Positions 325-16,629 of a stretch of DNA of 21,054 nucleotides are shown in pieces; positions within the stretch are counted from its first letter, which is position 1; the number at the start of each line of letters is the position of its first letter. The stretch comes from Bacteroidales bacterium. Its GTDB lineage: Bacteria > Bacteroidota > Bacteroidia > Bacteroidales > Bacteroidaceae. Both the position numbers and the translations under genes were made by a program. The notes under the pieces are model-generated. The model was given only the letters and a program-made list of their open reading frames with translations. It did not search any database and was not told the DNA's origin. The stretch spans positions 1 through 21,054 of the forward strand of contig JAUNNV010000029.1 of NCBI GenBank assembly GCA_030531335.1, written 5' to 3'.

Positions 325-363
325 CGCGCTGCAAAAATAGGAAGAAAATACTACTTTTGCGGC

Positions 364-3849: not shown

Positions 3850-3855
3850 GACAAA

Positions 3856-3900
3856 TATGATAATTTTGAATTATGAACTTATGATAATTAAGAATTATGA
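3856..3900. repeat. Tandem 21-nt direct repeat (19/21 identical, 24-nt period); each copy contains the palindrome ATAATT-N3-AATTAT
   Basis: 3856-3876 reads tatgataattttgaattatga and 3880-3900 reads tatgataattaagaattatga. The repeat lies in the 96-nt AT-rich spacer between the NfeD-like stop (3946) and the flotillin ATG (3849), ending 6 nt before that start codon. Confidence 0.8.
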
Positions 3901-3945
3901 CTTGCGAAGTTTGATGATCGAATCGAACAATCTTAACTCAAAATA

Positions 3946-4518: not shown

Positions 4519-4549
4519 GTTTTGATGTGTTTTCGTTGTTTTACGTTGG

Positions 4550-4580
4550 CAAATATAGGGACAAATAGATGAATTGCAAA
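4550..4580 (-). promoter_or_regulatory. Candidate Bacteroides-type promoter for the NfeD-like/flotillin pair
   Basis: The minus strand reads TTTG (4580-4577), a 19-nt spacer, then TATATTTG (4557-4550). This matches the Bacteroidetes -33 TTTG / -7 TAnnTTTG consensus. The -7 box ends 31 nt (4519-4549) upstream of the ATG at 4518. Confidence 0.5.
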
Positions 4581-4590
4581 ACAAATCGGC

Positions 4591-4669: not shown

Positions 4670-7108
4670 TCACATTTCGACCAAATGGAAGGAGGTCTGT
4701 CCTATCTGGAAGCTTTCGCCATGCCAGAGTTGATATTCCTTTCCAAGCGCGAGATATTTGCCCCCCTTCAAGGTGATGCCATCTACGGCACAGATACGCA
4801 CTACGCCATGCCTTTCATAAACCTTCACCTGCACGGGAGCCACGTCGCTTTGGAGATCCCAAGTGAGTTGCAAGGCGCAATCGACCGACTTGCCGATGGT
4901 GACAACTGTGTGAGGTGATGAGCGTAGCCATTTGTAGAGTGCGATGTCCATATCCTTGACAGATCCCGACACGTGCAGGAAAAAATGCTTGCCGACCGAC
5001 AAGGGTTGAGTCATGCACACCGCTATGGCCACACCATAGCCGATGAACACGAACAATGTCTTCATTAGTTCCGAAACCGTCTGTAGTTCCGCAACCATTT
5101 CCCAAAACAAAGTGCTCGCCACACCCACGACAGCCAGCATCAGCCACTGTCGCCTTTTGAGCCACAGGCGCGAATGATAGGTGGATACACAAGCGATGAC
5201 AAGTGTAGTCAGCACCCAAGGCAGCAGGTCGAACACAAACGAGCCCTCGTAAAGATTGAGCACGACAAGAGTGGCATTGTTGAAAACGAACACAAAAAAC
5301 ACGAGGACACACGCCACGGATGCCCGGACGAACTGCCCAAACAACCTTATGTGCCAACTATACTTGAACAACGTGAAGATTGACAGGGCAAAGGTAAGGA
5401 CGAAACCGATGATGCAACCAAATGTGGGAAGTGTATATAAACGTGAGGAGATGATGTCCAAATCCTGGGGGGAAAATGGGGATACACCTTGCTCGTGAAA
5501 GCCCAACAAGGAAATCGCGATACCATCGAAGAGGTCGAGAAAGAGTGAGCGAAAATGTGGATCCCACACAACCAACCAACCGATCGACGCCGCAGCGATG
5601 GCTACAAGGATCCAGCGTGTGAAGGGGGATGCGTTTTGAGGGTCGAGCAAGTTGGAACGGTTGTAATAATGCGAGCCATCGGGGCAATGCCTTCCATGTT
5701 CGGGGCAATGTTGTCCGTTTTCATTCCAACACTCCAAATGCATCACATGGCTGCATCTTGCCACGATACGGTCGCCCACGGCAAAGGGAGCCTTACAGTA
5801 ATAACATTCGTCGGGGATGGCGATGGCATTGATGCTCATGCGCCCCCCTGTATAGGTGAGGACATACTTGCGCTGAAAGATGACATAGCGTACAAATGGT
5901 TCCAACAGTTGCAAGGCCACGTAGGCGAGCAACAAGACCAGCAAGGCGATAATGATGCCGCGTGAAGCGATGTGGCCGGGCGATTTGTACCCACCGGTAA
6001 CGATTGGCACGTCAATGCTTCCGCACGCATATTCCTTGGAGCACCGGGCAATCAGGCTGTCGTTCCGGTCGTGGAAACTCAATTCCAGCCTGCGCGAACA
6101 GCCGTAGTAGATTTTCCCATCGGGATTCTCGAGCCGGATGGCGAAATCGGGATAGCCAATGCCGAAGGACGCGAAATTGTGTTTGCGCAACTCGACGGCA
6201 CTCAAACCATCGATGACACCCCCCCCCGATTGCTGGCAGAACACCTGCATCATATCCTTGTCGTCGGTGGAACTGTTTCCAGAGTCGGTCGAGGGAGTAC
6301 ACACGTAGCAAATGGCGGGTGCGGAAAACGAGGTGTCGGCGAGTTGTTGTAGGATTTGAGCCTGCACCCAGTAGTGGTCGGGGTCGAGAGGCGTATTGTC
6401 CGTCTCGTCATACACATGGCTGTCCGACAGTATCGCGATGGTGCGGTATGCAGCCGAGTCGAGAGGTGTTCCGGTGCCTTTGCGCAGTTTGCCGAGCATG
6501 AAGTACAAGGCACGATACACGTAAGGAGGAAGTTTGGTGTCGGACACACGATATTTGGAATTGCCGTTTACGTAATTGTCGATTACGTATGGCGAGACCT
6601 CCATGATAGGCGACAACTCGCCTTCGGAAAGGATGAACGAGATAAACACATTCCCATCGCCATACAGACGTATCAGCGAACGGATGTAGTCGCGTTCCTT
6701 TTCAAGCATGTCGGACGATTGGCACAAATCGACCATCAGCAGCAACTTGAGTCCCAACTTGGCATTTTCGGAAGCCACCACGTTGTTGAAGGAAACGACA
6801 TGTGGATGGGTCGATTCTGACCAAGGCACGAACTGGCGTTTCAGCTCCTTCACTGTCATGTGGATCAAGGAGCTGTCCTCAAGTAGGTATTTGTCCAAAT
6901 CATGGGTAATGTCCAACTCCAAGCTTATCTGTTTCACGTCGGTTGAAACGTTCATCGAGCGTATGGCCAAGGCATGGGTCTCGTGTTCGACCGAAGAAGG
7001 ATTCAACTCCGTGAACCGACTGCACGAGGCAAGTAGCAGAATGTATGGTAGCCAGACAGCAAACTGGCTGAAACGACGGAAACAACAAATTACAGACGGT
7101 TTCATCAT
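4670..7108 (-). CDS. Polytopic lipoprotein with four modules: periplasmic vWA-like domain, TM helix, cytoplasmic RING-H2-type zinc finger, six more TM helices, C-terminal FHA domain. Candidate membrane E3 ligase / signalling subunit.
   Basis: Lipobox LLLASC (Cys29). vWA-like strands are KLLLMVDLCQSSDM (a DxCxS degenerate MIDAS) and RTIAILSDSHVYDE. TM1 spans about aa 384-402. Residues 435-471 follow C-X2-C-X13-C-X-H-X2-H-X2-C-X7-C-X2-H, including CSHVMHLECW. By my hydrophobicity reading there are six further hydrophobic helices (aa ~497-700). The C-terminus VVTIGKSVDCALQLTW...VYERHGVVRICAVDGITLKGGKYLALGKEYQLWHGESFQIGQTSFHL is FHA-like. Confidence 0.7.
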   Translation of the reverse strand: MMKPSVICCFRRFSQFAVWLPYILLLASCSRFTELNPSSVEHETHALAIRSMNVSTDVKQISLELDITHDLDKYLLEDSSLIHMTVKELKRQFVPWSESTHPHVVSFNNVVASENAKLGLKLLLMVDLCQSSDMLEKERDYIRSLIRLYGDGNVFISFILSEGELSPIMEVSPYVIDNYVNGNSKYRVSDTKLPPYVYRALYFMLGKLRKGTGTPLDSAAYRTIAILSDSHVYDETDNTPLDPDHYWVQAQILQQLADTSFSAPAICYVCTPSTDSGNSSTDDKDMMQVFCQQSGGGVIDGLSAVELRKHNFASFGIGYPDFAIRLENPDGKIYYGCSRRLELSFHDRNDSLIARCSKEYACGSIDVPIVTGGYKSPGHIASRGIIIALLVLLLAYVALQLLEPFVRYVIFQRKYVLTYTGGRMSINAIAIPDECYYCKAPFAVGDRIVARCSHVMHLECWNENGQHCPEHGRHCPDGSHYYNRSNLLDPQNASPFTRWILVAIAAASIGWLVVWDPHFRSLFLDLFDGIAISLLGFHEQGVSPFSPQDLDIISSRLYTLPTFGCIIGFVLTFALSIFTLFKYSWHIRLFGQFVRASVACVLVFFVFVFNNATLVVLNLYEGSFVFDLLPWVLTTLVIACVSTYHSRLWLKRRQWLMLAVVGVASTLFWEMVAELQTVSELMKTLFVFIGYGVAIAVCMTQPLSVGKHFFLHVSGSVKDMDIALYKWLRSSPHTVVTIGKSVDCALQLTWDLQSDVAPVQVKVYERHGVVRICAVDGITLKGGKYLALGKEYQLWHGESFQIGQTSFHLVEM
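4673..4912 (-). other. FHA (forkhead-associated, phosphothreonine-binding) domain at the C-terminus of the 812-aa protein
   Basis: The pattern T-I-G-(K/R)-x...D..L...VS..HA-like is degenerate here (TIGKSVDCALQL...APVQVKVYERHGVVRI). It is followed by G(I)TLKGG...L..G..I.IG...F, which is typical of FHA C-terminal strands. Confidence 0.6.
5684..5806 (-). other. RING-H2-like zinc-finger motif within the 812-aa protein (aa 435-475)
   Basis: The segment is CYYCKAPFAVGDRIVARCSHVMHLECWNENGQHCPEHGRHC. Ligand spacing fits the RING-H2 consensus C-X2-C-X(9-39)-C-X(1-3)-H-X(2-3)-H-X2-C-X(4-48)-C-X2-C, with the last ligand His471 (or Cys475). Codons were checked: tgt at 5806-5804 and 5797-5795. Confidence 0.6.
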
Positions 7109-7110
7109 TG

Positions 7111-8076
7111 TCAGATGGTGGGATATTCGTTATCGTTAAATTGTGTCATGGACTTGTACTGCTTCGCCGCTTTCTTGGCGGCCTTCAGAGCGGCATATTT
7201 GCTCTTCATCATTGAAACAAACATCAGGATGATGGCTACGGCAGCCAAACTCATCAAGGAATCCTTCAGATGTTGCATCAGAGGCACATACTTCGCCTGT
7301 TGCACCTTGTCGGATTGCGCCTTTATCTCGGCGAACAACTGGCTGAGGCTGTCCATACGATTCTTTAGCGAAGGCACCAGCAATGCGGCTTGGGTGGCCT
7401 GTTGAAATGTTTGCTGCAATTCGGCAAAGGCGATTTGTTCCTTGGCTTGCAGCTGTTGCAGCAGAGGAGCCGTCTTGGCGGTCAGCGACAGCCTCTGGGA
7501 TTCCGACAGATATTGACTGTACTGATGCCGTTTCGATTCCAGCAGTTTTTCGGCCCGTGTAATGTCCTCCATCGCCTGCAGTCGGGCTTTTTGGGCTGCA
7601 ATCGAGTCCGACACGACTTGGAAGGTCACCTGAAAAGCCGTGAACTTGTCCATCAGAATCTCGTTTTCCACAATGTCTTGTTGTCGTACTTGCGTATAGA
7701 TATTCCATTGTACATTCACATTCTGCAACATCCGATCCAGTCCTTTTAATTCTGTCATCTTGGCCTGCGAAATACTTTTCCCGATATTGAGCAGTGTGGA
7801 TATGTATGCGTCCATCTCGCCCATCGTGGCGTTGGATTGTCCGCTTGGATGCGATGTCGTGGGTAAGTCTGAATAGACATCGAACTTTGTGGGCGTAGCC
7901 CATACAGACATGGTAGCCGATATGGTCACAAGCAGGATGGTGCAGAATGAGTAAACAACTTTTGTCACAATTGATTTCCTGTTATTGGCTTCGCCCATAA
8001 CAGACTGCGTCTCGGCATAACCAAGGTAGGCTTGCCTCTGCTCTTGGCTTGCGCTGTTATTCAAATTCACTGACAT
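7111..8076 (-). CDS. Hypothetical envelope protein: N-terminal TM anchor, Q-rich periplasmic coiled coil, C-terminal TM helix, short basic tail
   Basis: Part of ORF 7111..8232. Start is moved to MSVNLNN (ATG 8076) because 8077-8232 lies inside the upstream gene; M at 7998 is an alternative. TM helices are VVYSFCTILLVTISATMSVWA and LMSLAAVAIILMFVSMM. Coiled-coil heptads include LLQQLQAKEQIAFAELQQTFQQATQAAL. No family was recognised. Confidence 0.6.
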   Translation of the reverse strand: MSVNLNNSASQEQRQAYLGYAETQSVMGEANNRKSIVTKVVYSFCTILLVTISATMSVWATPTKFDVYSDLPTTSHPSGQSNATMGEMDAYISTLLNIGKSISQAKMTELKGLDRMLQNVNVQWNIYTQVRQQDIVENEILMDKFTAFQVTFQVVSDSIAAQKARLQAMEDITRAEKLLESKRHQYSQYLSESQRLSLTAKTAPLLQQLQAKEQIAFAELQQTFQQATQAALLVPSLKNRMDSLSQLFAEIKAQSDKVQQAKYVPLMQHLKDSLMSLAAVAIILMFVSMMKSKYAALKAAKKAAKQYKSMTQFNDNEYPTI

Positions 8077-9277
8077 GTTTGAAGAAATATTTCGCTGCTG
8101 TGTCGAAAATGCCATACGCACGACGCTGTTCTTCGTTGTATATGCCTTTTTCCTCAACACCTTGCTTGGTGACGTTGATGATGTCGCGACCCATAAAGTA
8201 GATATCGCGTCGTTCCAACTCATTTTTCGCAACCAGATTTTGCGCCACCAGTTTGTCTAATTGACGTGCCGCTCGGACAAGTGCTTCGGGCGAAATACCT
8301 GTGCCGTAGAGCACGCTGCCCTCTTCCGTCAGCTCTACCGGGACGGCGCATTTCAGGGATTCAATCGAATCCACGTAGTTGTTGTAACTGTCGCGCACCA
8401 TATTCACATCGGCACATGACGATTTCGTCTCTATCGGTTGGAATTTCGACAACAGAAATTCTTGATGTTGCTTGAACACGCCGACCTCCTCGGCGGATTC
8501 CACCTTGCCTGAAGGACATATCTGATGGAGCTTCCGATACGCTTTCCGGATATCCATCAACTTGGCTTTCATGACAGCCAACGCCTCTTGTTGACCATGG
8601 CAAGGATTGCGGGCCAATGCCACCCGACAAGTAAGGTCAAGATCGTGATCGAATACTATCTCGTATTCCCGTCCTTTCTGAGTGTCTTTCAACACATCCA
8701 CCACCATGATGTTGCGAATGCGCAACGTCACATCGGATGCCTCCGGATTCACCTTGAACCGTTGTGTCAAAATTTTCTGACTTAACTTCGGCAATGTCTG
8801 AGGCGAGTCTGTCGCACTTGTCGGCAGATAGGTAGCAGGACAGGCAATGGTGAGCGAGGCGGAGTTCGGTTCCACCCAGGCATTGATAAGGTGATGGCGG
8901 CGTTTCTTCCGATACGACTTATACACCGATTCTCTTAGGTAATATTTCGAATTAGGCTCTACCAGCACCTTATATTGCAATTTCTCGGCATGAAGCCGAC
9001 GTTTGCCAAGAAACGGATGGGTAAACACATCGTTGTAGGATACGTCCTGACGGAAAGCCATGAAATCGCGATTGCCAGACAACGTGAGAACCAACTCGTC
9101 GGCAGCCTCTTCGAAAGCAAGCGTCAGGTCAAGCTCCAAGCCTTTGTCGTCGAAGGCAATCTGTATTTTCTCCTGATAAGGCGTGTCGGCATCCACACGC
9201 ACGTTTTTGGTCTCTTGAGCCTGTGCCAGGGCAGCACAGCAGGCCATGAAAAGGCAGAAGAATTTAGTCTTGGTCAT
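8057..9277 (-). CDS. Hypothetical secreted/periplasmic protein (406 aa), no recognisable family
   Basis: Signal peptide MTKTKFFCLFMACCAALAQAQE. The ORF is long and well-formed with normal composition. Its start overlaps the E2 stop by 14 nt, and its stop overlaps the next gene's start. Confidence 0.65.
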   Translation of the reverse strand: MTKTKFFCLFMACCAALAQAQETKNVRVDADTPYQEKIQIAFDDKGLELDLTLAFEEAADELVLTLSGNRDFMAFRQDVSYNDVFTHPFLGKRRLHAEKLQYKVLVEPNSKYYLRESVYKSYRKKRRHHLINAWVEPNSASLTIACPATYLPTSATDSPQTLPKLSQKILTQRFKVNPEASDVTLRIRNIMVVDVLKDTQKGREYEIVFDHDLDLTCRVALARNPCHGQQEALAVMKAKLMDIRKAYRKLHQICPSGKVESAEEVGVFKQHQEFLLSKFQPIETKSSCADVNMVRDSYNNYVDSIESLKCAVPVELTEEGSVLYGTGISPEALVRAARQLDKLVAQNLVAKNELERRDIYFMGRDIINVTKQGVEEKGIYNEEQRRAYGIFDTAAKYFFKHVSEFE

Positions 9278-9860
9278 AATATATCCAATTGTTTGGTTCT
9301 CCTTGTGTCCGAACCCAATAGGCTACTTTCAAATCCTCTGGGTAAGGAGGTTCGGGCAGTGCATGGTAGATTTCGTAGCGCAGATACAGTGCGATGCGTT
9401 CCACAGCCCATGCCAAACTGCTGTGTGTGTTGGGCATGTTCACACACACACGTCCTGCCAGGCTACCATGATACCCTATGTTGGGATGCCAAGGCAACGT
9501 GTCGCCCACAAAACGGAAGCAAGGCATAGCATCTACCTGAGGATAACGTTCGGGAAGTTTTATCTCCATCCGAAACTCATGGGCGAAAATAGGACTGCCA
9601 TCCACATTCACCCCACAGATACATTTTATAAAATAGTCTATCGAGTAGGCCGTAGGGATTCCTTCAGGGGTGGCATCGACCACTTGCATGGCGATGTCGT
9701 TGCGTTGTTTCACAAAGGCGGCAAGCTGCTCCCACTCGTAAAACAGTCGGTGTGCGCGTCCTCGAAGAGGCTTGTTCTGAAACCAGCTTGTCCCGGGCGA
9801 AGTCAAGGAAAGGGGTTTACCCTGGGAATGGATCGGGGATGAGGAAAATTGTGTCGCCAT
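9264..9860 (-). CDS. UBC-fold ubiquitin-conjugating (E2)-like enzyme
   Basis: The segment FRMEIKLPERYPQVDAMPCFRFVGDTLPWHPNIGYHGSLAGRVCVNM reproduces the E2 core signature: F.l.i.fp..YP..pP...F.....HPNi....G.iC. HPN is aa 125-127 and the candidate catalytic Cys is Cys139 (tgt at 9446-9444). The ATG at 9860 overlaps the Ubl gene by 44 nt; a TTG at 9806 is an alternative start. Confidence 0.75.
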   Translation of the reverse strand: MATQFSSSPIHSQGKPLSLTSPGTSWFQNKPLRGRAHRLFYEWEQLAAFVKQRNDIAMQVVDATPEGIPTAYSIDYFIKCICGVNVDGSPIFAHEFRMEIKLPERYPQVDAMPCFRFVGDTLPWHPNIGYHGSLAGRVCVNMPNTHSSLAWAVERIALYLRYEIYHALPEPPYPEDLKVAYWVRTQGEPNNWIYYDQD

Positions 9861-10140
9861 TGTTCACATTATAGTCGGCAAGCGTCTGTTCGGTTTTCCC
9901 AATGCGCGGCCGCATCACGCGAATCTCGTGCACGACCTCGTCTTCTTTCCCAAAGAAATAATCGAGGGGTGCTCCTGTGCTGTCGATGGAGGGAAAGTCG
10001 AATATCAGTCGGCCATCTTGTCCGGTTGAATGTTTCAGGTTGTTCATCAATGCGCCCAATGGGAGTTGCGGATTGATGACGCGGAACTTCACCTTTTTGT
10101 CCTTATAGACAATGTTAATGAAAAAATCGTCTTGGTGCAT
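9817..10140 (-). CDS. Ubiquitin-like (beta-grasp) protein whose ORF ends in Gly
   Basis: 107 aa. The strand-strand-helix opening is FINIVYKDKKVKFRVINPQLPLGALMNNLKH. The C-terminal EQTLADYNVNNGDTIFLIPDPFPG parallels ubiquitin's [22 protein letters not shown]. The last codon is ggg (9822-9820), directly followed by a TAA stop (9819-9817). It sits directly upstream of the E2. Confidence 0.65.
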   Translation of the reverse strand: MHQDDFFINIVYKDKKVKFRVINPQLPLGALMNNLKHSTGQDGRLIFDFPSIDSTGAPLDYFFGKEDEVVHEIRVMRPRIGKTEQTLADYNVNNGDTIFLIPDPFPG

Positions 10141-10163: not shown

Positions 10164-11927
10164 TTATTTGCTACGCGAATCTAAGTCAATCTTCACTTGG
10201 ATGGGGCAGATGCCCGTAGTACGCACCTCCATGAGCCTTTGTAGGTGATTTTCGATACTGGCAAAATGTTTTCCCAACGCACGTTTCACATACATGTTGT
10301 CGTGGAGCACGATACCTACCACGATGCAATAAGCATGATAGCTACCTCGTGTAAGCACCTGCTTGTGCGTACGTATGGAGGCTATCATTTCCTGCTCTAC
10401 ATTGAACCGTGTGGCCAATTCCTGATAACAAAACAACTTTAGATCTGTTTCGGTGACAAGCCGGTCGTCGGTGGCTATGAAGTAGCGTGTAGCCGTCCTC
10501 ATGGCTTCCTCGGACAACAATTCGTCGTATCCTGGTTGAGGAATCGTCACTTGATGGGATTTGGACTGGTCGAAACCTGGGGGTACCACAAACACGGCAT
10601 CGGAGGTGAGCACACTGTTCACTACAGCTCCGTTAGTGGTCAGATAGCCGACATTGAGTGAAGTGTTTTCTGGGCTTTGTCGAAGGGTGTCGCCCCAACT
10701 ATCCTTCGAGCGTTCGTGAGGAATGCCGGCAAACATCAGATAGACACCCTCGTGCGAGGTTCGCAAATGTGGATGCGTGTGTTGCGACAACTCCTTCAGG
10801 TTGTTGCGCAGGTTGTGCATCACCATGTCGGTATATTCGTTGCCCATGGCCTGAAACGCATAATAGTCGGATGTGTATTTGTCGATGAGGCCCGACAACA
10901 ACCTGTGCAGCCTCCCCTCGTTGAACCTGTCGGCACCTATGCGCCGCACCTGTAGCCGGACATTGCCTAATAGTTGGTCCTCGTCGGGACGTAGCAGATG
11001 AAGAAACTGCCCATTGTTCTTGTCATCGATACGCTGTATAGGCGCATCGGCCGAGAGGGTGGCTGTTTTCACTTCGGCGTTCACTATCAAGGCGATGTTG
11101 ACAAGCAAATCGCTCTCTTTGAAAGAAAAGTTGTCGTCGATGCCGTCGAACTCGAAGGTGAGTTCCATGCGATCAATGGCATCGATATCGTCCATTTCAT
11201 CTACGACATACAGCAATAGGTTTTGTCGGGCATACAAATCCAGGGCGCAGAAGTTGCGATAGGCAGCCATGCCTTGGAACACGTTGCCCGAACGTACGGC
11301 TTGCGACTGATTGTAGAGCAACGTATCAAGCGAGAAACAGTCGGCACACGGCAGATTCGCAAAGTCCCACGGTGCGATGAGGGGTATTTCCCTATCGCTC
11401 ATGCTTACACGCAGGCCATGGAAATCCTGGTTCTTCAAGGCAAACGCAAGGCCTTTTAGGCTTTTCACCTTGTGTGGAAAGAACATATTGACTTGCCATC
11501 TCCTTCCATCCACGCGCCTCAGCCCATCCATCTCCACCTGTATGGCTTTGGTCTTGAGCAAGGGGATGAAGTTGAAGTTGTTGTTGTCGGTTCCTTTTAA
11601 GATGAATCTCATGGACGAATCGACATCCATTTCCGTCACATTGGGCATCAGAGCCAATTGCACGACGGCTGTGGCTGGAATGGCCTTGACTGGTTCGTTC
11701 ACGCAAAGCATGTTCTGGAACTCGTCGAGCAGCTCCGTCCGCAATGCCTCCAACTCGTTGTCCGACTCGTTGAATTGATAGGCCAGTGCCGTAATCAGGA
11801 ACTTGAACAGCGGATCCGAATCCAGTCCCTCAAGACTGTCGCTTCTGTTGTTGCGGTGCCAAATATCCACACATTGGGCCATCAGCTCCTTGGCGCGTTG
11901 TCTTATTTCAAATATGTTCTGTCTCAT
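10164..11927 (-). CDS. tssF: TssF-like (phage gp6-like) baseplate wedge subunit
   Basis: 587 aa, the typical TssF size. The N-terminus IRQRAKELMAQCVDIWHRNN...DSDPLFKFLITALAYQFNESDNELEALRTELLDEFQNML...IPATAVVQL matches the remembered TssF N-terminal layout: a helical segment, the DP(l/h)v..Ll motif, then PAhAv. It is positioned directly after a gp25/TssE gene. Confidence 0.6.
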   Translation of the reverse strand: MRQNIFEIRQRAKELMAQCVDIWHRNNRSDSLEGLDSDPLFKFLITALAYQFNESDNELEALRTELLDEFQNMLCVNEPVKAIPATAVVQLALMPNVTEMDVDSSMRFILKGTDNNNFNFIPLLKTKAIQVEMDGLRRVDGRRWQVNMFFPHKVKSLKGLAFALKNQDFHGLRVSMSDREIPLIAPWDFANLPCADCFSLDTLLYNQSQAVRSGNVFQGMAAYRNFCALDLYARQNLLLYVVDEMDDIDAIDRMELTFEFDGIDDNFSFKESDLLVNIALIVNAEVKTATLSADAPIQRIDDKNNGQFLHLLRPDEDQLLGNVRLQVRRIGADRFNEGRLHRLLSGLIDKYTSDYYAFQAMGNEYTDMVMHNLRNNLKELSQHTHPHLRTSHEGVYLMFAGIPHERSKDSWGDTLRQSPENTSLNVGYLTTNGAVVNSVLTSDAVFVVPPGFDQSKSHQVTIPQPGYDELLSEEAMRTATRYFIATDDRLVTETDLKLFCYQELATRFNVEQEMIASIRTHKQVLTRGSYHAYCIVVGIVLHDNMYVKRALGKHFASIENHLQRLMEVRTTGICPIQVKIDLDSRSK

Positions 11928-11943
11928 CGTTATGCACCCTTCA

Positions 11944-12387
11944 TTAGTTCCATACGTTTATGATGTTGCTGTACTGAAAAGGCTCGTTTGTATCGCCCAA
12001 CAGGCCGGTTATTTCCACCAATACTTGCCGTTGGTCGCGGCGGTAGTTCATTACTACCTTTGGTGAGAGCAACCGAGGCTCATACACCTCGATGCTATGC
12101 TTCAGGTCGGAGGCGAATGTCTGTAGGTTCTTCGAGGAGCCGGAAACTTTCTTCTTGTATATTGGATTCCGGCTGTCACGAGAATCGAACACCGTCCCCT
12201 CGTTCTCGTCGAAAATCTCAAATCTCAACGTGGAGAACACAAAGCCATAATCCGGATCGATGGGCAAAGAGCCCAACGGTGTGTCCATCAGGAGCTGTAG
12301 CGAATCCCTGACCGATTGCTCCAACCCGTTCGACTGATGGAGGAACCTGCCCGACACTACCTGTAAAGGACTTTGCAAGTATTTCAT
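11944..12387 (-). CDS. tssE: GPW/gp25-family baseplate protein (TssE-like)
   Basis: 147 aa. LEQSVRDSLQLLMDTPLGSLPIDPDYGFVFSTLRFEIFDEN fits the gp25 signature (I..sl..LL.T..Ge....P.yG). Both size and position next to the TssF-like gene are as expected. Confidence 0.75.
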   Translation of the reverse strand: MKYLQSPLQVVSGRFLHQSNGLEQSVRDSLQLLMDTPLGSLPIDPDYGFVFSTLRFEIFDENEGTVFDSRDSRNPIYKKKVSGSSKNLQTFASDLKHSIEVYEPRLLSPKVVMNYRRDQRQVLVEITGLLGDTNEPFQYSNIINVWN

Positions 12388-13589
12388 ATCAATGGTGTGA
12401 AAACATCTTCCGGCTGATGTTCCTCCTTGGCCACGAGACCAGACAGCGCATTGAACAATGCAGGGTAAAGTTCCTGATATAGCCTATCGTGCAATGCTTC
12501 GTACAGCACTTCTTTCAGCTTCGGACGAAGTCGATCGTCCACGTATGCCTGCAGTTTTTCCGTGATTGTCGCGGTCAGTTCAGGCATCACCACGTCGCGA
12601 AGTTCCATGCGGATTTTTTCGTCTATTTGCTGCTTCAATTGTTCAAGAAGTTGTGTGTACAACTCTCTCTTCAGCGCCTCCACATCGATGTGGCGACTTT
12701 CCGTCACCACATCGTCCATGGACAGTAGCAAGGCGTTCATGAATTCTTTGAGCCACGACAGGTAGGCTCGGATATGGTTTGTGTGAGGCACGCGGCGAGG
12801 GTCGGCGGCCAGCTCGCGCGTGGGTTCTTGTCCTGAGCCCTGCCGAAGGACTTGTTGGCCTCCCAATCCCAATCGGATGTGGTAATCCAAGGCTTGATCC
12901 GTTTCGCGCAACAGTCGCACAAGCTCCACTACCGACTCCTTGCCGGTGAGGCTCTGTAGCCGGAAACACAGATGTAACAAGGTGCGTTTGCCGTCACCAT
13001 CCTCCATGTTGCGGTGGGTAGCCAGCTTCGTGAGTAGTTCCACATACATGCTTACGAACTCTCCGAAAGCCTTGTGCGAGGCTGTCGAGATCATGGGAGG
13101 CACATACGAGGCATCCACATTGAGCAGGTCGCCCTCTACGTAAAGCCTCTTCAGCGGCAGTACGTCCAAACTTTCGTCGGCACGTTCCAACTCGTCCAGC
13201 GAATGCAGCGAGAGCTCGTAAACGGGAGCCTTGTAGGGTATGCCATCGCGTTCGAAACAATGTGTTTTCCCATTGGCAGGGCCGACGCACACAAAACATT
13301 CCGGCAACGGTTGCGACACGATGGTCAGCGTGAGGTCGTCATCTACGCTGAGCACGGCCCCCGATGGCAACAATGCCGTAAGCCTCAGATTGTTCATCTC
13401 GAAGGTGTTGCCCACAAAAGCGCCCTCAACGTGTAGTGGGTACATGGGGAGAATGCCCATGCCGACACTCCCTATGGCGGCGCGGAGCAACAGTTGCTGA
13501 CGGTTGTCGAAGTCGTGTTGCTGATGGACGAAGACCCCAGAGGTGAGCTCCATCCCTGGTTGCCAATGTATATTTGCGTTGTAATACAT
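12384..13589 (-). CDS. TssK-like baseplate protein (N-terminal domain) with a divergent helical C-terminus
   Basis: The N-terminus NIHWQPGMELTSGVFVHQQHDFDNRQQLL resembles the TssK opening motif (W.eGm.L.pqHfQq.dry). The C-terminal ~100 aa are repetitive helices (LKRELYTQLLEQLKQQIDEKIRMELRDVVMPELTATITEKLQAYV...). Its stop overlaps the gp25 start in an ATGA junction (12384-12387). Confidence 0.45.
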   Translation of the reverse strand: MYYNANIHWQPGMELTSGVFVHQQHDFDNRQQLLLRAAIGSVGMGILPMYPLHVEGAFVGNTFEMNNLRLTALLPSGAVLSVDDDLTLTIVSQPLPECFVCVGPANGKTHCFERDGIPYKAPVYELSLHSLDELERADESLDVLPLKRLYVEGDLLNVDASYVPPMISTASHKAFGEFVSMYVELLTKLATHRNMEDGDGKRTLLHLCFRLQSLTGKESVVELVRLLRETDQALDYHIRLGLGGQQVLRQGSGQEPTRELAADPRRVPHTNHIRAYLSWLKEFMNALLLSMDDVVTESRHIDVEALKRELYTQLLEQLKQQIDEKIRMELRDVVMPELTATITEKLQAYVDDRLRPKLKEVLYEALHDRLYQELYPALFNALSGLVAKEEHQPEDVFTPLI

Positions 13590-13631: not shown

Positions 13632-14432
13632 TCATTCATAGTCCTTAATTACGATATTGTAGTTCATGATTTTCCCTTCCTCCGACTTGCCCTTGGCTCC
13701 TGCCTCAAACAGGCAGTCGAAAGGAATGAACCGGCTGTGCACAAATGCAAGCATACGTTCCCATCGTTTGGTAAGGTCGGCGTATGCGGTGGCTGTCAGA
13801 CCATCCACACAAATGTCGTAATGCACTTTTTGCATCCAAAAGCGTGTGTTGTCGCATTCGTTGTACGCCGACAAACGCATCCGCACCGGATAACCCGTGA
13901 CAACGCTCAGCAATGATTTTACAAACGACAAGTTGCCACGGAGTTTGGCCACGTATGGCAGCAACACCGCCACCTTGCGCACATACTCGTCCGTTTCCGC
14001 CTCCAAGTCGAACTTGTAGGATGTTTTTAACACGAATTCGAGCTTGCGGGCCAGCAAGTCGGCCACGATGTGTTCCCGCTTCAGCTTCTGCCTGAACATG
14101 AACGAGTCGATGGGTAGGAAAGTTTCTGACAGTGTCCTTATCCGCTCATGCAACTGTTGGGCAAGCTGTTTGAAATCGCCTTTTCGTTTCCTTCCGAAAC
14201 GGTCGGATGCCTTCAGCTCATCCTCCGATCCTAAAAACAAGGGAGGCAGATAGTGTAGGAAGCCGTTGCGCGAAAGCGATACGATTGCTTCCTTCGGATT
14301 GATGGACAACACATCCGGCGCATAGTTCCTGCTGAAGGAACCTTTCTGATAGGCCAGCCACTTGTCTTCCAGCTCTGGATACAAATAGTTGAGCAACAGT
14401 TCCGCACTTATCTCGTGCCTGTCGGTTGTCAT
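13632..14432 (-). CDS. Possible TssG-like baseplate subunit (tentative)
   Basis: 266 aa, in the TssG size range. The C-terminus YDICVDGLTATAYADLTKRWERMLAFVHSRFIPFDCLFEAG resembles the TssG tail pattern (igpL....f..flP.g....l..lv..flP..l). It lies among baseplate genes. Evidence is weak and pattern-level only. Confidence 0.35.
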   Translation of the reverse strand: MTTDRHEISAELLLNYLYPELEDKWLAYQKGSFSRNYAPDVLSINPKEAIVSLSRNGFLHYLPPLFLGSEDELKASDRFGRKRKGDFKQLAQQLHERIRTLSETFLPIDSFMFRQKLKREHIVADLLARKLEFVLKTSYKFDLEAETDEYVRKVAVLLPYVAKLRGNLSFVKSLLSVVTGYPVRMRLSAYNECDNTRFWMQKVHYDICVDGLTATAYADLTKRWERMLAFVHSRFIPFDCLFEAGAKGKSEEGKIMNYNIVIKDYE

Positions 14433-15478
14433 AGTTCCACGTACCTATATCCTGTTGGGGTCTTTATTCTCACAATGTCGTGTGCTGGAATGCCCAACGC
14501 AGCCAATGGCAGCGTGGGGTAGGGGAACGAGGTGTCTATCTCCGCATATTCGTGTTGGCATAGTTTCGCCATCGGTATGGTCGAAAGTCGTGGATGTTGC
14601 TTCACGAAGCCAGCCATTCGGCGTGCCGGCAGCATTGCTTCCGTCTGTTCGCCCGTCTCTCGATTCTCTACATAATCCACAAAGGCATCGTTGAGCACCA
14701 CAGTGCCAATCCGCAGGAGTGATTTCAGCGAGTGTTCCCTGACTACTTCAATAGGCTCCCATTGCTCGTGCAGCACGCAATCGTCATCCCACGCCTCGAA
14801 CACGGCTTTCCGCACACTCAGGTTTTCGCCATCGTAGTAGCACATGTTTCGTTCCACTGGCACGCCTGCAATCACTTTCAATGCTTCGGCTGCTTGCCAG
14901 GCTCCTATCACGCTGGCCGCCACTGATGTGGTAGGGGCATGGCCAGCCGCTTCCATTTGCCGTATCACGCCCGAACAAGGCATCCGTCGGCGCAACTCGT
15001 CCAGTCCTTCCGTCCCGAGGCCACAAGCGTAGCAGTTCACGCCGGGCACAAACACCCGCATCGTCCCCTCCATGCCGATGATGCCACCGTCAATCCATGT
15101 CTTTCCTGCCCTCGTACAGAGGCGCTGGATGCAATAGCGGGTCCACCGGCTATCGACGCATCCCATCACCACGTTCATCTGCCGTATCAATGCCAATCCC
15201 ACATCGTATGCCACATCGCCATGGATGGCCTGCACATCGACGGTGGCGTTGATGCCTCTCAGCGCGTCCTTCACCACATCCACTTTGCGCCGACCCACAT
15301 CGACTGGCCTGAACAGGATGCTTCGTGTGAGGTTGCCCTGTTCCACCACATCGAAATCGACCACCACCAGATGCCCCACTCCAAGCAGTACGAGGTTTTT
15401 GAGCACCTCGTTGCCCAGGGCCCCACATCCCACCACCATGATGCGGGCATCGCGCAGCTTGTCTTCTTCGATGTTCAT
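14429..15478 (-). CDS. ThiF/MoeB/E1-like adenylyltransferase (Ubl-activating enzyme candidate)
   Basis: Start is set at MNIEEDKLRDARIMVVGCGALGNEV (ATG 15478, forming an ATGA overlap with the upstream stop). The Rossmann GxGxxG is at 15413-15430. Other family motifs are VVDFDVVEQGNLTRSILF, GRRKVDVVKDAL, VVMGCVDSRWTRYCIQRLC and GTMRVFVPGVNCYACGL. A crossover-loop Cys lies in RRRMPCSGV. About 130 extra C-terminal residues end in LAALGIPAHDIVRIKTPTGYRYVEL. Confidence 0.8.
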   Translation of the reverse strand: MNIEEDKLRDARIMVVGCGALGNEVLKNLVLLGVGHLVVVDFDVVEQGNLTRSILFRPVDVGRRKVDVVKDALRGINATVDVQAIHGDVAYDVGLALIRQMNVVMGCVDSRWTRYCIQRLCTRAGKTWIDGGIIGMEGTMRVFVPGVNCYACGLGTEGLDELRRRMPCSGVIRQMEAAGHAPTTSVAASVIGAWQAAEALKVIAGVPVERNMCYYDGENLSVRKAVFEAWDDDCVLHEQWEPIEVVREHSLKSLLRIGTVVLNDAFVDYVENRETGEQTEAMLPARRMAGFVKQHPRLSTIPMAKLCQHEYAEIDTSFPYPTLPLAALGIPAHDIVRIKTPTGYRYVEL

Positions 15479-16200
15479 CCGATTGGTAGTTTGTCCTGAA
15501 TGCTGTTGAAGACCTTGTCGAGCTTCATGCTCTGTCCGCCTTTTGTGATGTCCGTTGTGGATGTATCCTTCGCATTGCCGGCCACATGGCGGTTGTAGGC
15601 TTCCTCGATTTCCTTTTTCTTGTCGTTGTAGAGTCGTTCCATCATTTCGGAATACGTGTCGAAAATTTCCTGCAACTTGTCCTTGGCCTCTTTTACCGCC
15701 TCTTCCGAGCTTCCTACAGTGCGACTGGCTACCGCAGACGCAGCCCTCGTCTTTTCTGCCTCGATTTTCGTCTTGCATTCCGAGTAGAGTGCATCGGTGG
15801 CCGTGTCGAGTAAATCCTTGCGTTCCTTATTTACATCGGGCATCGTGAGCAGTAGGTATTTGGCATCGATGCCATTCTCATCGTCTGCCCCAGGAGCAGT
15901 TTCGAGCGTCACCTTGAATTCCGGATGCACTTCCGTGATGCCTTTGTAAATGCAGGAGAAGTACGCCGAATCCTTTGGATATACATTCATCATGTGTTTT
16001 TCGTTCTCATCCTCGTGCACTAAAATGTCGGCCACGTCCTCAATGCGTTTGTCCATGCCACCATACACCATCTCCACTCCCAGCAACGAAGAGGGATCGG
16101 CCTTGACACACACGTTGCAGAACAGGTACGACATGCTTGCCACATGTCCCAGCATCCTGTTCTGTGTTTCTATCAATGCGACTTCTACCGATCGTTTCAT
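15475..16200 (-). CDS. Hypothetical protein with apparent ribosome-recycling-factor (RRF)-like fold
   Basis: 241 aa. Three segments align by eye to E. coli Frr as I remember it:
- [32 protein letters not shown]...[18 protein letters not shown] versus [52 protein letters not shown].
- [38 protein letters not shown] versus [38 protein letters not shown].
- [25 protein letters not shown] versus [25 protein letters not shown].
It also has an insertion and a ~45-aa C-terminal extension. Confidence 0.4.
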   Translation of the reverse strand: [241 protein letters not shown]

Positions 16201-16239: not shown

Positions 16240-16629
16240 CTATTTGCCCTCTGCAAGGCACGCATTGCCGGGGAAGTTCACGGAGATGTTTCCACCCCAG
16301 TTGCACATACATTTGCAGTTGTCGAGCAGTGCAGGCATTTGTTTTACCATTTCTTTTCCTCCAGGCATCCATGGAGCGGCTATCACTGGCATGCAGGGCA
16401 TGGGCGTAAGTGCTCCGAATGCTGCAGCCGTGGCCGCAGCCACCTGAGGATTCGACAAGCTTTGGCACATGCCGAAAGGCATGATGTTCATCATCGGCTT
16501 GTTGTCGCCGATGTTTCCTATGGGTTTCCCCTGTACCTTTGGTCGGGTGGGATCCACCACCATGAAGTTGGAAGGAGCCATCCCGAACGAGCACTGCAGG
16601 ATTGCTCCGGCCGTTACGAATTTTCCCAT
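16240..16629 (-). CDS. DUF4280 (PAAR-like) domain protein, candidate spike-tip protein
   Basis: 129 aa. FVTAGAILQCSFGMAPSNFMVV...VQGKPIGNIGDNKPMMNIMPFGMCQSLSNP...TPMPCMPVIAAPWMPGG...QMPALLDNCKCMCNWGGNISV matches the DUF4280 pattern (A.l.Cs.G..Ps.l.v...g.p.a...D....NI.pFG.C...nP...PC.P....W......g.paL...s.l.C..gG.I). Confidence 0.75.
   Translation of the reverse strand: MGKFVTAGAILQCSFGMAPSNFMVVDPTRPKVQGKPIGNIGDNKPMMNIMPFGMCQSLSNPQVAAATAAAFGALTPMPCMPVIAAPWMPGGKEMVKQMPALLDNCKCMCNWGGNISVNFPGNACLAEGK

What the first reader, a model, noticed from the sequence alone, without database searches (positions are those of the whole stretch)
9264..10140. Ubl encoded with a terminal Gly as its last codon, overlapping its E2 by 44 nt, with no recognisable DUB in 21 kb
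**What the sequence shows.**
- The 107-aa beta-grasp candidate ends ...DTIFLIPDPFPG, immediately followed by TAA (ggg at 9822-9820, stop at 9819-9817).
- Unlike ubiquitin precursors and many bacterial Ubls, it therefore needs no C-terminal processing before adenylation.
- It ends with a single Gly preceded by Pro-Phe-Pro rather than a Gly-Gly tail.
- It carries a ~30-aa insertion relative to ubiquitin (LIFDFPSIDSTGAPLDYFFGKEDEVVHEIRVMRPRIG).
- The E2 ATG (9860) lies 44 nt inside the Ubl gene in another frame.
- The E2 has a 12-residue spacing from the HPN Asn127 to Cys139. My recollection is that this spacing is about 8 in canonical UBCs.
- I found no JAB/MPN (HxH...S..D) or obvious Cys-peptidase DUB signature in any ORF of the window.

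**Inference.** The E2/Ubl overlap suggests coupled, stoichiometric expression. Together these points suggest a conjugation that is either irreversible or reversed by an unrecognised enzyme.
Basis: partly seen in the sequence, partly recalled or inferred. Interest (0 to 1): 0.75.

Follow-up and report, generated by a model that had tools for sequence, protein, structure and literature searches.

The report
Ubiquitin-like conjugation module inside Bacteroidales T6SS
The small gene is a real ubiquitin-like protein made ready-to-use, and with its E1, E2 and a membrane RING ligase it is built into the baseplate operon of a type VI secretion system found in about 150 gut Bacteroidales species, a link I did not find in the literature I could search.

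Summary

The E2 has the UBC fold, with invariant HPN and Cys139 and an N-to-C spacing of 12.

The 44-nt overlap is real only in a sub-clade. In 64 of 81 loci the E2 starts after the Ubl stop.

No JAB or other recognisable peptidase lies in the window or in 170 related loci. Diverged sister systems carry a membrane-anchored JAMM peptidase next to the RING gene. In two of the three sister lineages examined the Ubl has a 2-residue tail after Gly.

The block E1, TssG-like, TssK, TssE, TssF-like, Ubl, E2, two envelope proteins and a RING/6-TM/FHA membrane protein is colinear in about 80 loci. It sits inside a complete T6SS locus (ClpV, TssC, Hcp, VgrG, PAAR-like).

Most likely the cascade ligates the Ubl to a T6SS component at the inner membrane. 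The target and role are inferred, not shown.

I class it as a new variant of bacterial ubiquitination-like systems. Interest is high.

The parts
9817..10140 (-). Ubl, 107 aa. Beta-grasp, ends PFPG followed by the stop codon.
9264..9860 (-). E2, 198 aa from the ATG at 9860 (alternative TTG start near 9806). UBC fold with HPN125-127 and Cys139. Residues 1-33 are disordered.
   Evidence: Pfam UQ_con 26.7 bits against a cut-off of 27. Profile against PDB: UBE2K at 1.2e-3, with HPN and Cys aligned. AF2 pLDDT 87, and all top-50 Foldseek hits are eukaryotic E2s. Invariant residues.
14429..15478 (-). E1, 349 aa from the Met at 15478. ThiF/MoeB-type adenylation domain with GCGALG 17-22, CxxC at 149/152, Cys168 as candidate catalytic Cys, C234/H237, and an uncharacterised C-terminal stretch of about 110 aa.
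   Evidence: Pfam ThiF 2.5e-49. Best PDB matches are the active adenylation domains of UBA7, UBA1 and SAE2 (4e-24), and MoeB over the full length. Conserved residues: where the numbering is 10 lower. Its ATG overlaps the upstream stop as ATGA.
4670..7108 (-). Membrane RING-H2 E3 candidate, 812 aa. Lipobox Cys29, periplasmic domain about 30-383 (possibly vWA-like), TM1 384-402, RING 435-480, six TM helices 496-699, FHA about 730-812.
   Evidence: zf-RING_2 1e-3. Among 26 family members, Prok-RING_1 and zf-RING_2 each match 18, and FHA matches 13 (best 2.9e-8). Invariant C435, C438, C452, H454, C460, W461, C468, C475, H480; H457 is conserved in at least 90%. TM scan.
8057..9277 (-). Conserved 406-aa protein with an N-terminal signal peptide. 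Probable envelope component.
   Evidence: Colinear in 82 loci. Two conserved Cys and no conserved His. No family hit.
7111..8232 (-). Conserved coiled-coil protein with a C-terminal TM helix. The true start is probably downstream, since homologues are about 290 aa.
10164..11927 (-). 587-aa TssF-like baseplate protein (assignment tentative).
   Evidence: It sits directly after TssE in all loci. The 595-aa protein at the same position (after gp25/TssE) in L178 has a faint PF05947 T6SS_TssF hit. No direct hit for the window protein.
11944..12387 (-). TssE, a gp25-like baseplate wedge protein.
   Evidence: PF04965 3.8e-10.
12384..13589 (-). TssK-like baseplate protein.
   Evidence: TIGR03353 TssK 9e-4. 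The homologue in L005 has a weak PF05936 T6SS_VasE hit.
13632..14432 (-). 266-aa conserved protein that always follows E1. Possibly TssG-like, unproven.
   Evidence: The E1-g266 adjacency is kept in the window clade and in sister clades L174 and L176. No hits. No conserved Cys, His or Ser.
15475..16200 (-). RRF-like 241-aa protein.
   Evidence: PF01765 4.8e-12. It travels with the 597-aa protein and VgrG in 70 of 80 metagenome loci.
16240..16629 (-). PAAR-like spike tip protein (DUF4280).
   Evidence: PF14107 1e-30.
16639..18432 (-). 597-aa VgrG-associated protein of unknown function.
   Evidence: It lies directly downstream of VgrG in 76 of 80 loci.
19784..21054 (-). C-terminal part of a VgrG-like spike protein. 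The ORF is open to the end of the window.

Best explanation
**What it is.** The window holds the baseplate end of a Bacteroidota-type (type iii) type VI secretion system. A complete ubiquitin-like conjugation cascade is built into it as a fixed component.

**Proposed steps**
- The Ubl is translated in mature form with Gly107 exposed.
- The compact ThiF/MoeB-type E1 adenylates Gly107 and takes it onto a crossover-loop cysteine (Cys168).
- The Ubl passes to Cys139 of a eukaryote-like UBC E2.
- The E2~Ubl is recruited by the cytoplasmic RING-H2 finger of an 812-aa inner-membrane protein. This protein also carries a periplasmic lipid-anchored domain, six TM helices and an FHA domain.
- The Ubl is ligated to a lysine of a T6SS component at the membrane/baseplate interface. 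Candidates are TssK or another baseplate protein, the spike, or the RING protein itself.

**Proposed role.** In canonical T6SSiii the EccD-like ubiquitin-like domain of TssN docks the baseplate protein TssK without a covalent bond. Here a free EccD-like Ubl plus a ligase may do that job covalently and under regulation. The FHA domain suggests phospho-threonine input.

**The missing peptidase.** This clade has lost the membrane-anchored JAMM peptidase that sister systems keep next to the RING gene. Conjugates would then be permanent, be removed with the spent machine, or be cleaved by an unlinked enzyme.

**Shown versus inferred.** Shown: folds, motifs, conservation and gene linkage. Inferred: every chemical step, the target and the role.
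For: **Ubl**
- The terminal Gly is invariant.

**E1, E2, RING**
- E2 has the UBC fold with invariant HPN and Cys.
- E1 matches ThiF at 2.5e-49. GxGxxG, CxxC and Cys168 are conserved in at least 93% of family members.
- In the RING, eight of the nine candidate zinc ligands are invariant and H457 is conserved in at least 90%. The FHA domain is detected in 13 of 26 members.

**Linkage to the T6SS**
- The 10-gene block E1, g266, TssK, TssE, TssF-like, Ubl, E2, g406, g373, RING is colinear in essentially all 80 genome loci. Relatives of the Ubl are found in 152 species.
- Upstream lie ClpV, TssC (3e-104), Hcp and VgrG. Representatives of all of these families, from ClpV through E1 and the baseplate genes to g406, come from single contigs such as L101.
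- Diverged relatives (24-44% Ubl identity) sit in T6SS loci with a different gene order. The association has therefore survived rearrangement.

**Conservation and the JAMM pattern**
- The Ubl is far more conserved (68-95%) than E1 and E2 (about 48%) or the baseplate genes (25-45%).
- Two of the three sister lineages examined (L176, L178) have a Ubl with a tail after Gly (AG-AC, AGG-TN). All three carry a JAMM protein with the motif HSHPGLGxFxSxxD.

**Parallel with TssN.** The cytoplasmic domain of TssN is reported as EccD-like and ubiquitin-like, and it binds TssK (PMC10781749).
Against: - No biochemical evidence exists. Conjugation, its target and its effect on secretion are all untested.
- The TssF-like and TssG-like assignments of the neighbouring genes are weak.
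- I could not compare the Ubl directly with TssN, nor show that TssN is absent from these genomes. I can only say that no TssN/O/P/Q/R Pfam hit appeared in the proteins I scanned.
- The E2 and RING Pfam scores are just under the curated cut-offs.
- A DUB could be encoded elsewhere in the genome.
- Burroughs et al. 2011 may already describe related RING/TM operons. That paper is not held in the library.
Confidence: 0.6

Rival explanations
1. The cascade loads or marks cargo rather than building the machine. The Ubl would be ligated to effectors, to the spike (VgrG or PAAR-like) or to the 597-aa VgrG partner. This would recruit them to the baseplate, or the Ubl would be delivered with them into target cells.
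For: - The Ubl module sits beside the spike module: VgrG, the 597-aa protein, PAAR-like DUF4280 and the RRF-like protein.
- Sister loci carry PAAR-like fusion proteins of 419 and 647 aa upstream of the Ubl.
- The only bacterial Ubl system with a known target, Bil, modifies a phage tail-tip protein. That protein is the viral counterpart of the T6SS spike region (bioRxiv 10.1101/2023.09.04.556158).
Against: - Effectors vary between strains, whereas the Ubl and its enzymes are fixed and the Ubl is extremely conserved.
- The ligase is an integral inner-membrane protein, which points to a site at the membrane.
- Nothing tested here distinguishes this reading from the main one.
Confidence: 0.13
2. 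It is an anti-phage ubiquitination island of the Bil kind that merely sits within or next to T6SS genes, and it acts on phage proteins.
For: - Known bacterial E1/E2/Ubl operons (Bil, and type II CBASS Cap2) are defence systems (PMC11601603, PMC10557695).
- E1 gives weak partial hits to the Cap2 and BilD models.
Against: - The Ub genes are interleaved with baseplate genes, in the same order in about 80 loci and inside T6SS loci in three different arrangements. Defence islands are not normally that stable.
- The Ubl has no hit to any PADLOC model, which includes the Bil models. E2 gives only a weak generic hit (8e-4), and E1 matches BilD over only about 65 residues.
- No JAB peptidase is present in this clade.
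- The membrane RING/FHA protein has no counterpart in Bil.
Confidence: 0.08
3. The Ubl is a non-covalent structural adaptor, like the TssN or EccD/YukD ubiquitin-like domains. E1, E2 and RING would then have another or no catalytic role.
For: - The best prokaryotic structural match is the EccD5 ubiquitin-like domain of type VII secretion, which is not conjugated.
- The TssN ubiquitin-like domain docks TssK without ligation.
Against: - The terminal Gly directly before the stop codon is invariant in all 120 listed homologues.
- E2 HPN and Cys139 are invariant. E1 GxGxxG and Cys168 are conserved in at least 93% of members. The RING zinc ligands are invariant or nearly so.
- Sister clades keep a JAMM peptidase, and two of the three examined have a Ubl tail after Gly. 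Both features make sense only for a conjugated Ubl.
Confidence: 0.07
4. The Ubl is a sulphur carrier of the ThiS/MoaD kind. E1 would thiocarboxylate it to supply sulphur for a cofactor or a toxin.
For: - E1 is of the ThiF/MoeB type (TIGR02356 1.6e-36; MoeB 1jw9 4e-19).
- The Ubl has a free C-terminal Gly.
Against: - No rhodanese domain, thiazole synthase or molybdopterin synthase gene was seen in any locus.
- A UBC E2 and a RING finger have no role in sulphur transfer.
- The tail is PFPG, not GG.
Confidence: 0.04

Closest known systems
Bil (bacterial ISG15-like) systems BilABCD, types I and II
   Same: - Separate Ubl, UBC-like E2 and E1 genes in one operon.
- A Ubl with a reactive C-terminal Gly.
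- The known Bil target is a phage tail-tip protein, which belongs to the same structural family of machines as a T6SS.
   Different: - Bil always has a JAB peptidase (BilC), and many BilA proteins need trimming after the conserved Gly. The window clade has neither feature.
- Bil E1 has two adenylation domains and a CYS domain. The E1 here is a 349-aa single domain.
- Bil has no RING, no membrane component and no T6SS linkage.
- PADLOC gives no hit for the Ubl, only a weak generic hit for E2, and a partial BilD match for E1.
Bub (6E/DUF6527) operons and type II CBASS Cap2/Cap3
   Same: They are bacterial E1/E2-based conjugation pathways. Distant relatives of this Ubl include E2-Ubl fusion proteins, which recall the fused architectures of Bub.
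   Different: - Bub has Ubl-E2 or E2-E1 fusions plus a DUF6527 serine peptidase.
- Cap2 is an E2-E1 fusion that acts on a CD-NTase.
- None of these proteins or domains was found here.
Prokaryotic RING-finger ubiquitin-type operons (Burroughs, Iyer and Aravind 2011; Pfam Prok-RING_1 and Prok-RING_4)
   Same: - E1, an HPN-type E2, a Ubl and a RING finger are encoded together.
- 18 of 26 RING proteins here give sub-threshold Prok-RING_1 hits.
- From my recollection of the abstract, that paper proposed that YukD-like Ubls might be conjugated.
   Different: - I could not read the paper, so any overlap with its operon types is unverified.
- Scores are below the Pfam cut-off.
- A citing review says those operons usually pair the ligases with JAB (PMC3417536). 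JAB is absent here.
- No source I could read mentions a T6SS context.
Canonical Bacteroidota T6SSiii (GA1-GA3) with the TssN-O-P-Q-R membrane complex
   Same: - The same core parts: ClpV, TssC, Hcp, VgrG, PAAR-like, TssE and TssK.
- TssN uses an EccD-like ubiquitin-like domain to dock TssK. The Ubl here is also EccD-like.
   Different: - No TssN/O/P/Q/R family hit in the proteins scanned.
- Instead there is a free Ubl with E1, E2 and a RING/6-TM/FHA protein, plus two other envelope proteins.
- The GA1-3 survey and a 2026 review of T6SS accessory factors contain no mention of ubiquitin or ThiF.
YukD / EccD ubiquitin-like domains of type VII secretion
   Different: From my own knowledge, YukD and EccD lack a C-terminal Gly and have no E1 or E2 partners. 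Sequence identity is only 13-14%.

Membership tests
Ubiquitin-like protein modifiers (beta-grasp Ubl) | Beta-grasp fold | tested here: met
Ubiquitin-like protein modifiers (beta-grasp Ubl) | C-terminal Gly available for adenylation | tested here: met
   PFPG followed by the stop codon in the window and in all 120 listed homologues.
Ubiquitin-like protein modifiers (beta-grasp Ubl) | Covalent attachment to targets through E1 and E2 | not testable with these tools
   Needs biochemistry. Only gene linkage and catalytic-residue conservation were shown.
UBC-fold E2 (PF00179) | UBC fold | tested here: met
   AF2 pLDDT 87. All 50 top Foldseek hits are eukaryotic E2s, best Ube2K at 5.8e-7.
UBC-fold E2 (PF00179) | HPN motif and catalytic Cys | tested here: met
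   H125, P126, N127 and C139 are invariant in 26 and 87 sequences and align to HPN and Cys of UBE2K. The loop is 3-4 residues longer than canonical.
UBC-fold E2 (PF00179) | Score above the Pfam gathering threshold | tested here: inconclusive
   26.7 bits against a cut-off of 27 for the window protein. Many homologues carry a precomputed PF00179 hit.
E1 / ThiF-MoeB adenylating enzymes | ThiF-type adenylation domain with nucleotide-binding GxGxxG | tested here: met
   PF00899 2.5e-49. GCGALG at 17-22 is conserved.
E1 / ThiF-MoeB adenylating enzymes | Catalytic Cys for the thioester | tested here: inconclusive
   Cys168 lies 16 residues after the CxxC pair and is conserved in at least 93% of 68 sequences. 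Its position in the crossover loop was not checked on a structure.
E1 / ThiF-MoeB adenylating enzymes | Ubiquitin-fold domain (UFD) for E2 binding, as in canonical eukaryotic E1s | not tested
   The C-terminal stretch of about 110 residues has no family hit.
RING E3 ligases | Cross-brace pattern of Cys/His zinc ligands | tested here: met
   C435, C438, C452, H454, C460 plus C468, C475 and H480 are invariant; H457 is conserved in at least 90%.
RING E3 ligases | Family model above threshold | tested here: inconclusive
   zf-RING_2 19.7 bits against a cut-off of 27.3. 18 of 26 members match at E up to 0.01.
Bil system (BilABCD) | JAB/JAMM peptidase BilC in the operon | tested here: not met
   No JAB by Pfam or PADLOC, by JAMM-motif scan or by tblastn in the window and 170 related loci.
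Bil system (BilABCD) | Match to the BilA, BilB and BilD models | tested here: not met
   The Ubl has no PADLOC hit. E2 has only a generic 'E2' hit at 8e-4. E1 matches BilD at 2e-6 over about 65 residues.
Bub (6E/DUF6527) operons | DUF6527 serine peptidase, and Ubl-E2 or E2-E1 fusion proteins | tested here: not met
   No such domain in any window ORF, and E1, E2 and Ubl are separate genes.
Type VI secretion system, type iii (Bacteroidota) | Core genes: ClpV, TssB/C, Hcp, VgrG, TssE/F/G/K | tested here: met
   In the window: TssE, weak TssK, PAAR-like and the VgrG C-terminal part. On the same contigs in relatives: ClpV, TssC 3e-104, Hcp and VgrG. The TssF and TssG assignments are only tentative.
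Type VI secretion system, type iii (Bacteroidota) | TssN-O-P-Q-R membrane complex | tested here: inconclusive
   No Pfam or NCBIfam hit to these proteins in the proteins scanned. These proteins diverge fast, and whole genomes were not searched.

The most novel reading that the evidence does not exclude
A widespread gut-Bacteroidales type VI secretion system needs covalent ubiquitin-like modification for its assembly, firing or recycling. The modification would be made by its own eukaryote-like E1, E2 and membrane RING E3 cascade. A free EccD-like Ubl would be ligated to the baseplate or membrane complex, in place of the built-in ubiquitin-like docking domain of TssN. One clade would have dispensed with the deconjugating JAMM peptidase. 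This would be the first secretion machine shown to be built or controlled by ubiquitin-type conjugation, and a bacterial E1-E2-RING-E3 pathway with a defined cellular role outside phage defence.
Probability: 0.45. Interest if true: 0.9.

Novelty: new variant of a known kind. Interest (0 to 1): 0.8.

Why it matters
**For bacterial ubiquitination.** The pathways with an established role so far are linked to phage defence (Bil, CBASS). Bub has a proposed stress-response role. RING-type E3s in bacteria are described only as rare bioinformatic cases (PMC10557695). Here a full E1-E2-RING-Ubl set is a fixed part of a T6SS in about 150 Bacteroidales species, several of them cultured. That gives the pathway a defined and genetically testable cellular context.

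**For T6SS biology.** It suggests a new layer of assembly or control, and a different solution for coupling the membrane to the baseplate in Bacteroidota.

**For evolution.**
- The E2 (HPN motif, best matches to eukaryotic UBCs) and the E1 (best matches to UBA1, UBA7 and SAE2 adenylation domains) are unusually eukaryote-like.
- The Ubl shows ubiquitin-like extreme conservation.
- The contrast between clades with and without JAMM is a natural experiment on whether deconjugation is needed.

Tried and rejected
- **Burroughs et al. 2011 and 2012.** Neither paper is held. Whether they already list this operon type stays open.
- **AlphaFold database fold search.** The library was not available.
- **TssG-like (A4) and TssF-like (A6) profiles against PDB sequences.** No meaningful hit. 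These assignments rest on position, plus one faint TssF hit in L178.
- **Contexts of distant Ubl relatives with C-terminal tails.** P0184, P0142 and the E2-Ubl fusion P0173 lie on contigs of 2-4 kb and were uninformative.
- **Orphan ORFs as hidden DUBs.** The 406-aa protein has a signal peptide and no conserved His. The 241-aa protein is RRF-like with no catalytic set. Both are rejected as recognisable peptidases.
- **The long 449-aa E1 ORF.** Rejected. The real start is Met101 at 15478.
- **Minor families near the 597-aa homologues.** They turned out to be unrelated neighbours such as efflux pumps and glycoside hydrolases. Many VgrG / 597-aa / RRF-like clusters are therefore auxiliary spike islands away from the main locus.
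- **Literature searches.** Searches for T6SS together with ThiF, ubiquitin-like or E1 in Bacteroidales returned nothing relevant.


Full report
**1. The observation**

All real genes in the window are on the minus strand.
- The ORF 9817-10140 encodes 107 aa ending ...DTIFLIPDPFPG. GGG lies at 9822-9820 and TAA at 9819-9817.
- The next gene downstream has an ATG at 9860, 44 nt inside the first gene and in another frame. It reads WHPNIGYHGSLAGRVC, with N127 and C139.

**2. The Ubl**

A word-indexed search found 543 homologues.
- All 120 listed are at least 68% identical, are called 'hypothetical', carry no Pfam domain and come from Bacteroidales.
- All 120 end in PFPG directly before the stop.

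A full HMM scan of 1.84 billion cluster representatives found only 82 at E up to 1e-3, so the family is narrow.

The AlphaFold model has pLDDT 88.3 and pTM 0.77 (46-sequence alignment). Its order of elements is beta-beta-alpha-beta-beta-beta.
- Foldseek returns only SUMO, ubiquitin and Ubl domains, including the bacterial BilA.

The fold is therefore beta-grasp. The extra length relative to ubiquitin lies mostly between helix 1 and strand 3 (about residues 37-60). That segment (GRLIFDFPSID.TGAPLDYFFGKED) is the best-conserved part of the protein. It is a functional surface rather than a loose insertion.

**3. The E2**

- Pfam UQ_con scores 26.7 bits, just under the cut-off of 27.
- A family profile hits eukaryotic UBE2K at 1.2e-3, with WHPN and the catalytic Cys aligned and a 3-residue gap between them.
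- The AlphaFold model has pLDDT 87. All 50 top Foldseek hits are eukaryotic E2s.
- H125, P126, N127 and C139 are invariant across 87 sequences, as is a PYPED motif at residues 172-176.
- The N-to-C spacing of 12 is fixed in the family. UBE2K has 9 and the UBE2D type has 8.
- Residues 1-33, including those encoded in the overlap, are predicted disordered.

**4. The overlap**

In 81 loci I located every in-frame start between the last upstream stop and the conserved E2 core.
- In 64 loci the E2 can only start after the Ubl stop.
- In 12 loci the only start lies inside the Ubl gene. Nine of these use the ATG at -44 and three have a 4-nt ATGA-type overlap.
- Five loci, including the window, have both options.

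In the window's close relatives the linker between the ATG and the core varies by whole codons and contains no other start. The overlap is real in that sub-clade. It is not a family trait, so it cannot carry a general argument about stoichiometry.

**5. What surrounds it**

Pfam and NCBIfam identify the following.
- A ThiF-type E1 at 14429-15478, scoring 2.5e-49. The true start is Met101 of the long ORF.
- gp25/TssE.
- A weak TssK match.
- A PAAR-like DUF4280 protein.
- An RRF-like protein.
- An 812-aa protein with a RING finger.

Eighty loci from named genomes were retrieved, and 152 of 185,579 species representatives encode a relative of the Ubl. The genera include Bacteroides, Prevotella, Alistipes, Parabacteroides, Paludibacteraceae, Millionella, Mediterranea and Caecibacteroides.

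These loci share the same ten genes in the same order: E1, g266, TssK, TssE, TssF-like, Ubl, E2, g406, g373, RING protein. Nothing is conserved beyond the RING gene.

Loci centred further upstream show ClpV, TssC (3e-104), several Hcp genes, a 1,240-aa VgrG, then the 597-aa protein, PAAR-like and RRF-like genes. Some also have a SpoIIE-type phosphatase and a STAS protein. The window's last ORF is the C-terminal part of that VgrG.

This is a complete T6SS of the Bacteroidota type, with a Ub-type cascade interleaved among its baseplate genes.

**6. The ligase**

The 812-aa protein has these features.
- An invariant lipobox Cys29 and a periplasmic domain.
- One TM helix.
- A RING-H2 ligand set: C435, C438, C452, H454, C460, then C468, C475 and H480 are invariant; H457 is conserved in at least 90%.
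- Six more TM helices.
- A C-terminal FHA domain.

Across 26 family members, Prok-RING_1 and zf-RING_2 each match 18, and FHA matches 13 (best 2.9e-8). The topology places both RING and FHA in the cytoplasm.

**7. The DUB question**

- No peptidase family matched any window protein in Pfam, NCBIfam or PADLOC.
- None of the conserved proteins of unknown function keeps a Cys+His pair, an HxH or an HExxH.

The informative result came from diverged relatives of the Ubl.
- P0137 (44% identical, ends PIAG), P0191 (24%, ends PIAG-AC) and the L178 locus (Ubls ending AGG-TN) all lie in T6SS loci with a different gene order.
- That order is TssC, Hcp, VgrG, PAAR-like..., Ubl, E2, x, x, JAB, RING protein, x, E1, g266-like, TssK/E/F.
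- Just upstream of the RING gene they carry a protein of 530-654 aa with a TM anchor and a textbook JAMM motif, HSHPGLGxFxSxxD (Prok-JAB 6.9e-4).
- This JAMM family has 168 members in the 5.8-billion-protein database. All of those listed are Bacteroidales proteins of the same architecture.
- tblastn and a motif scan found no trace of it in the window or in 170 window-type loci.

The window clade is therefore a JAMM-less derivative. It is also the clade in which the Ubl end is uniformly the bare PFPG. Whether a DUB exists elsewhere in these genomes was not testable here.

**8. How it probably works**

The catalytic inventory is complete and conserved.
- E1: GxGxxG, CxxC and Cys168 (each conserved in at least 93% of members).
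- E2: HPN and Cys139 (invariant).
- RING: zinc ligands invariant or nearly so.
- Ubl: terminal Gly.

The Ubl is far more conserved (68-95%) than its enzymes (about 48%) or the baseplate genes (25-45%). That is the pattern expected of a modifier that must fit many partners.

The linkage to the T6SS has survived at least three gene-order arrangements. I therefore take conjugation onto a T6SS-associated target at the inner membrane as the best explanation.

One specific lead supports this. In canonical T6SSiii the hub protein TssN has a cytoplasmic domain described as EccD-like and ubiquitin-like, and it binds TssK (PMC10781749). The free Ubl here has EccD5 (7b9f, 7b7j) as its best bacterial structural match. 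No TssN-R hit appeared in the proteins scanned.

The idea that ligation of the Ubl replaces or regulates that docking step is inference only.

The rivals are listed with their tests in the rival explanations. They are cargo marking, a defence island, a non-covalent adaptor and a sulphur carrier.

**9. Comparison with known systems**

It works like a eukaryote-type E1-E2-RING cascade, but it is not a member of the described bacterial families.
- **Bil:** no JAB, a different E1 architecture, and no match of the Ubl or E2 to Bil-specific models.
- **Bub:** no DUF6527 peptidase and no fused enzymes.
- **CBASS Cap2:** no E2-E1 fusion and no CD-NTase.

It may be related to the RING-containing operons of Burroughs et al. 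2011. [quoted passage not shown] I could not read that paper.

Searches of the held literature for a T6SS with E1, E2, Ubl or ThiF found nothing.
- The GA1-3 survey contains no mention of ubiquitin or ThiF.
- A 2026 review of T6SS accessory factors contains none either.

**10. Verdict**

- The terminal Gly alone is ordinary.
- The overlap is clade-specific.
- The absence of a DUB is real for the locus and is a derived state.

The larger result is the T6SS-embedded Ub-type cascade with a membrane RING E3. I rate it a new variant of a known kind and of high interest. All chemistry and the target are still to be shown.

Noticed in passing
L005:10325-10370, L006:10325-10377, L007:10325-10405: The spacer between the Ubl and E2 genes holds tandem GATAGTTGA(C/T)AATT repeats. 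Copy number differs between otherwise near-identical loci.
   Followed up: no
L178:4904-7706: This JAMM-bearing sister locus has two Ubl-E2 gene pairs plus a third E2. The Ubls end in AGG-TN. The first E2 copy reads HPLHPT...GRVSLN, so the Asn is Thr and the catalytic Cys is Ser. It could be a UEV-like pseudo-E2 or a serine E2.
   Followed up: partly
window 18470-19768 (minus strand): A BNR/sialidase-like gene with a signal peptide lies between the VgrG and the 597-aa gene. It is present only in the window and its closest relative L008, which suggests a recent insertion into the T6SS locus.
   Followed up: partly
window 15475-16200 (minus strand): A 241-aa protein with a ribosome-recycling-factor-like domain (PF01765, 4.8e-12) is conserved beside the PAAR-like gene. 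It accompanies VgrG and the 597-aa protein in 70 of 80 metagenome loci, including auxiliary spike islands. Its role is unknown.
   Followed up: partly
window 2482-4584 (minus strand): An SPFH/flotillin and NfeD gene pair lies directly downstream of the RING gene. It is present only in the window and L008.
   Followed up: no
P0173 (629 aa), P0202 (298 aa): Distant relatives include proteins with the E2 fused N-terminally to the Ubl domain. They lie on short contigs, so their context is unknown.
   Followed up: partly
L164:3604-5205, L146:4376-4678 and similar: A SpoIIE-type PP2C phosphatase with a HAMP domain lies among the upstream T6SS genes in 32 of 80 loci, and a STAS protein in 23 of 80. 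This may be a phospho-signalling input for the FHA domain of the RING protein.
   Followed up: no
window 15475-15478: The E1 start codon overlaps the stop of the RRF-like gene as ATGA. TssE and TssK also overlap by 4 nt at 12384-12387. Short overlaps of this kind are the usual form of coupling in this operon.
   Followed up: partly
window 34-2382 (plus strand) versus 499-2289 (minus strand): Two long ORFs overlap on opposite strands. The minus-strand translation looks like low-complexity noise. The plus-strand 782-aa ORF has a weak HHH_3 hit and is probably the real gene, outside the T6SS block.
   Followed up: no
L002:2196-3533 and 52 other loci: A PEGA-domain protein of about 450 aa lies between the PAAR-like and RRF-like genes in 53 of the genome loci. 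It is absent from the window and its close relatives.
   Followed up: no
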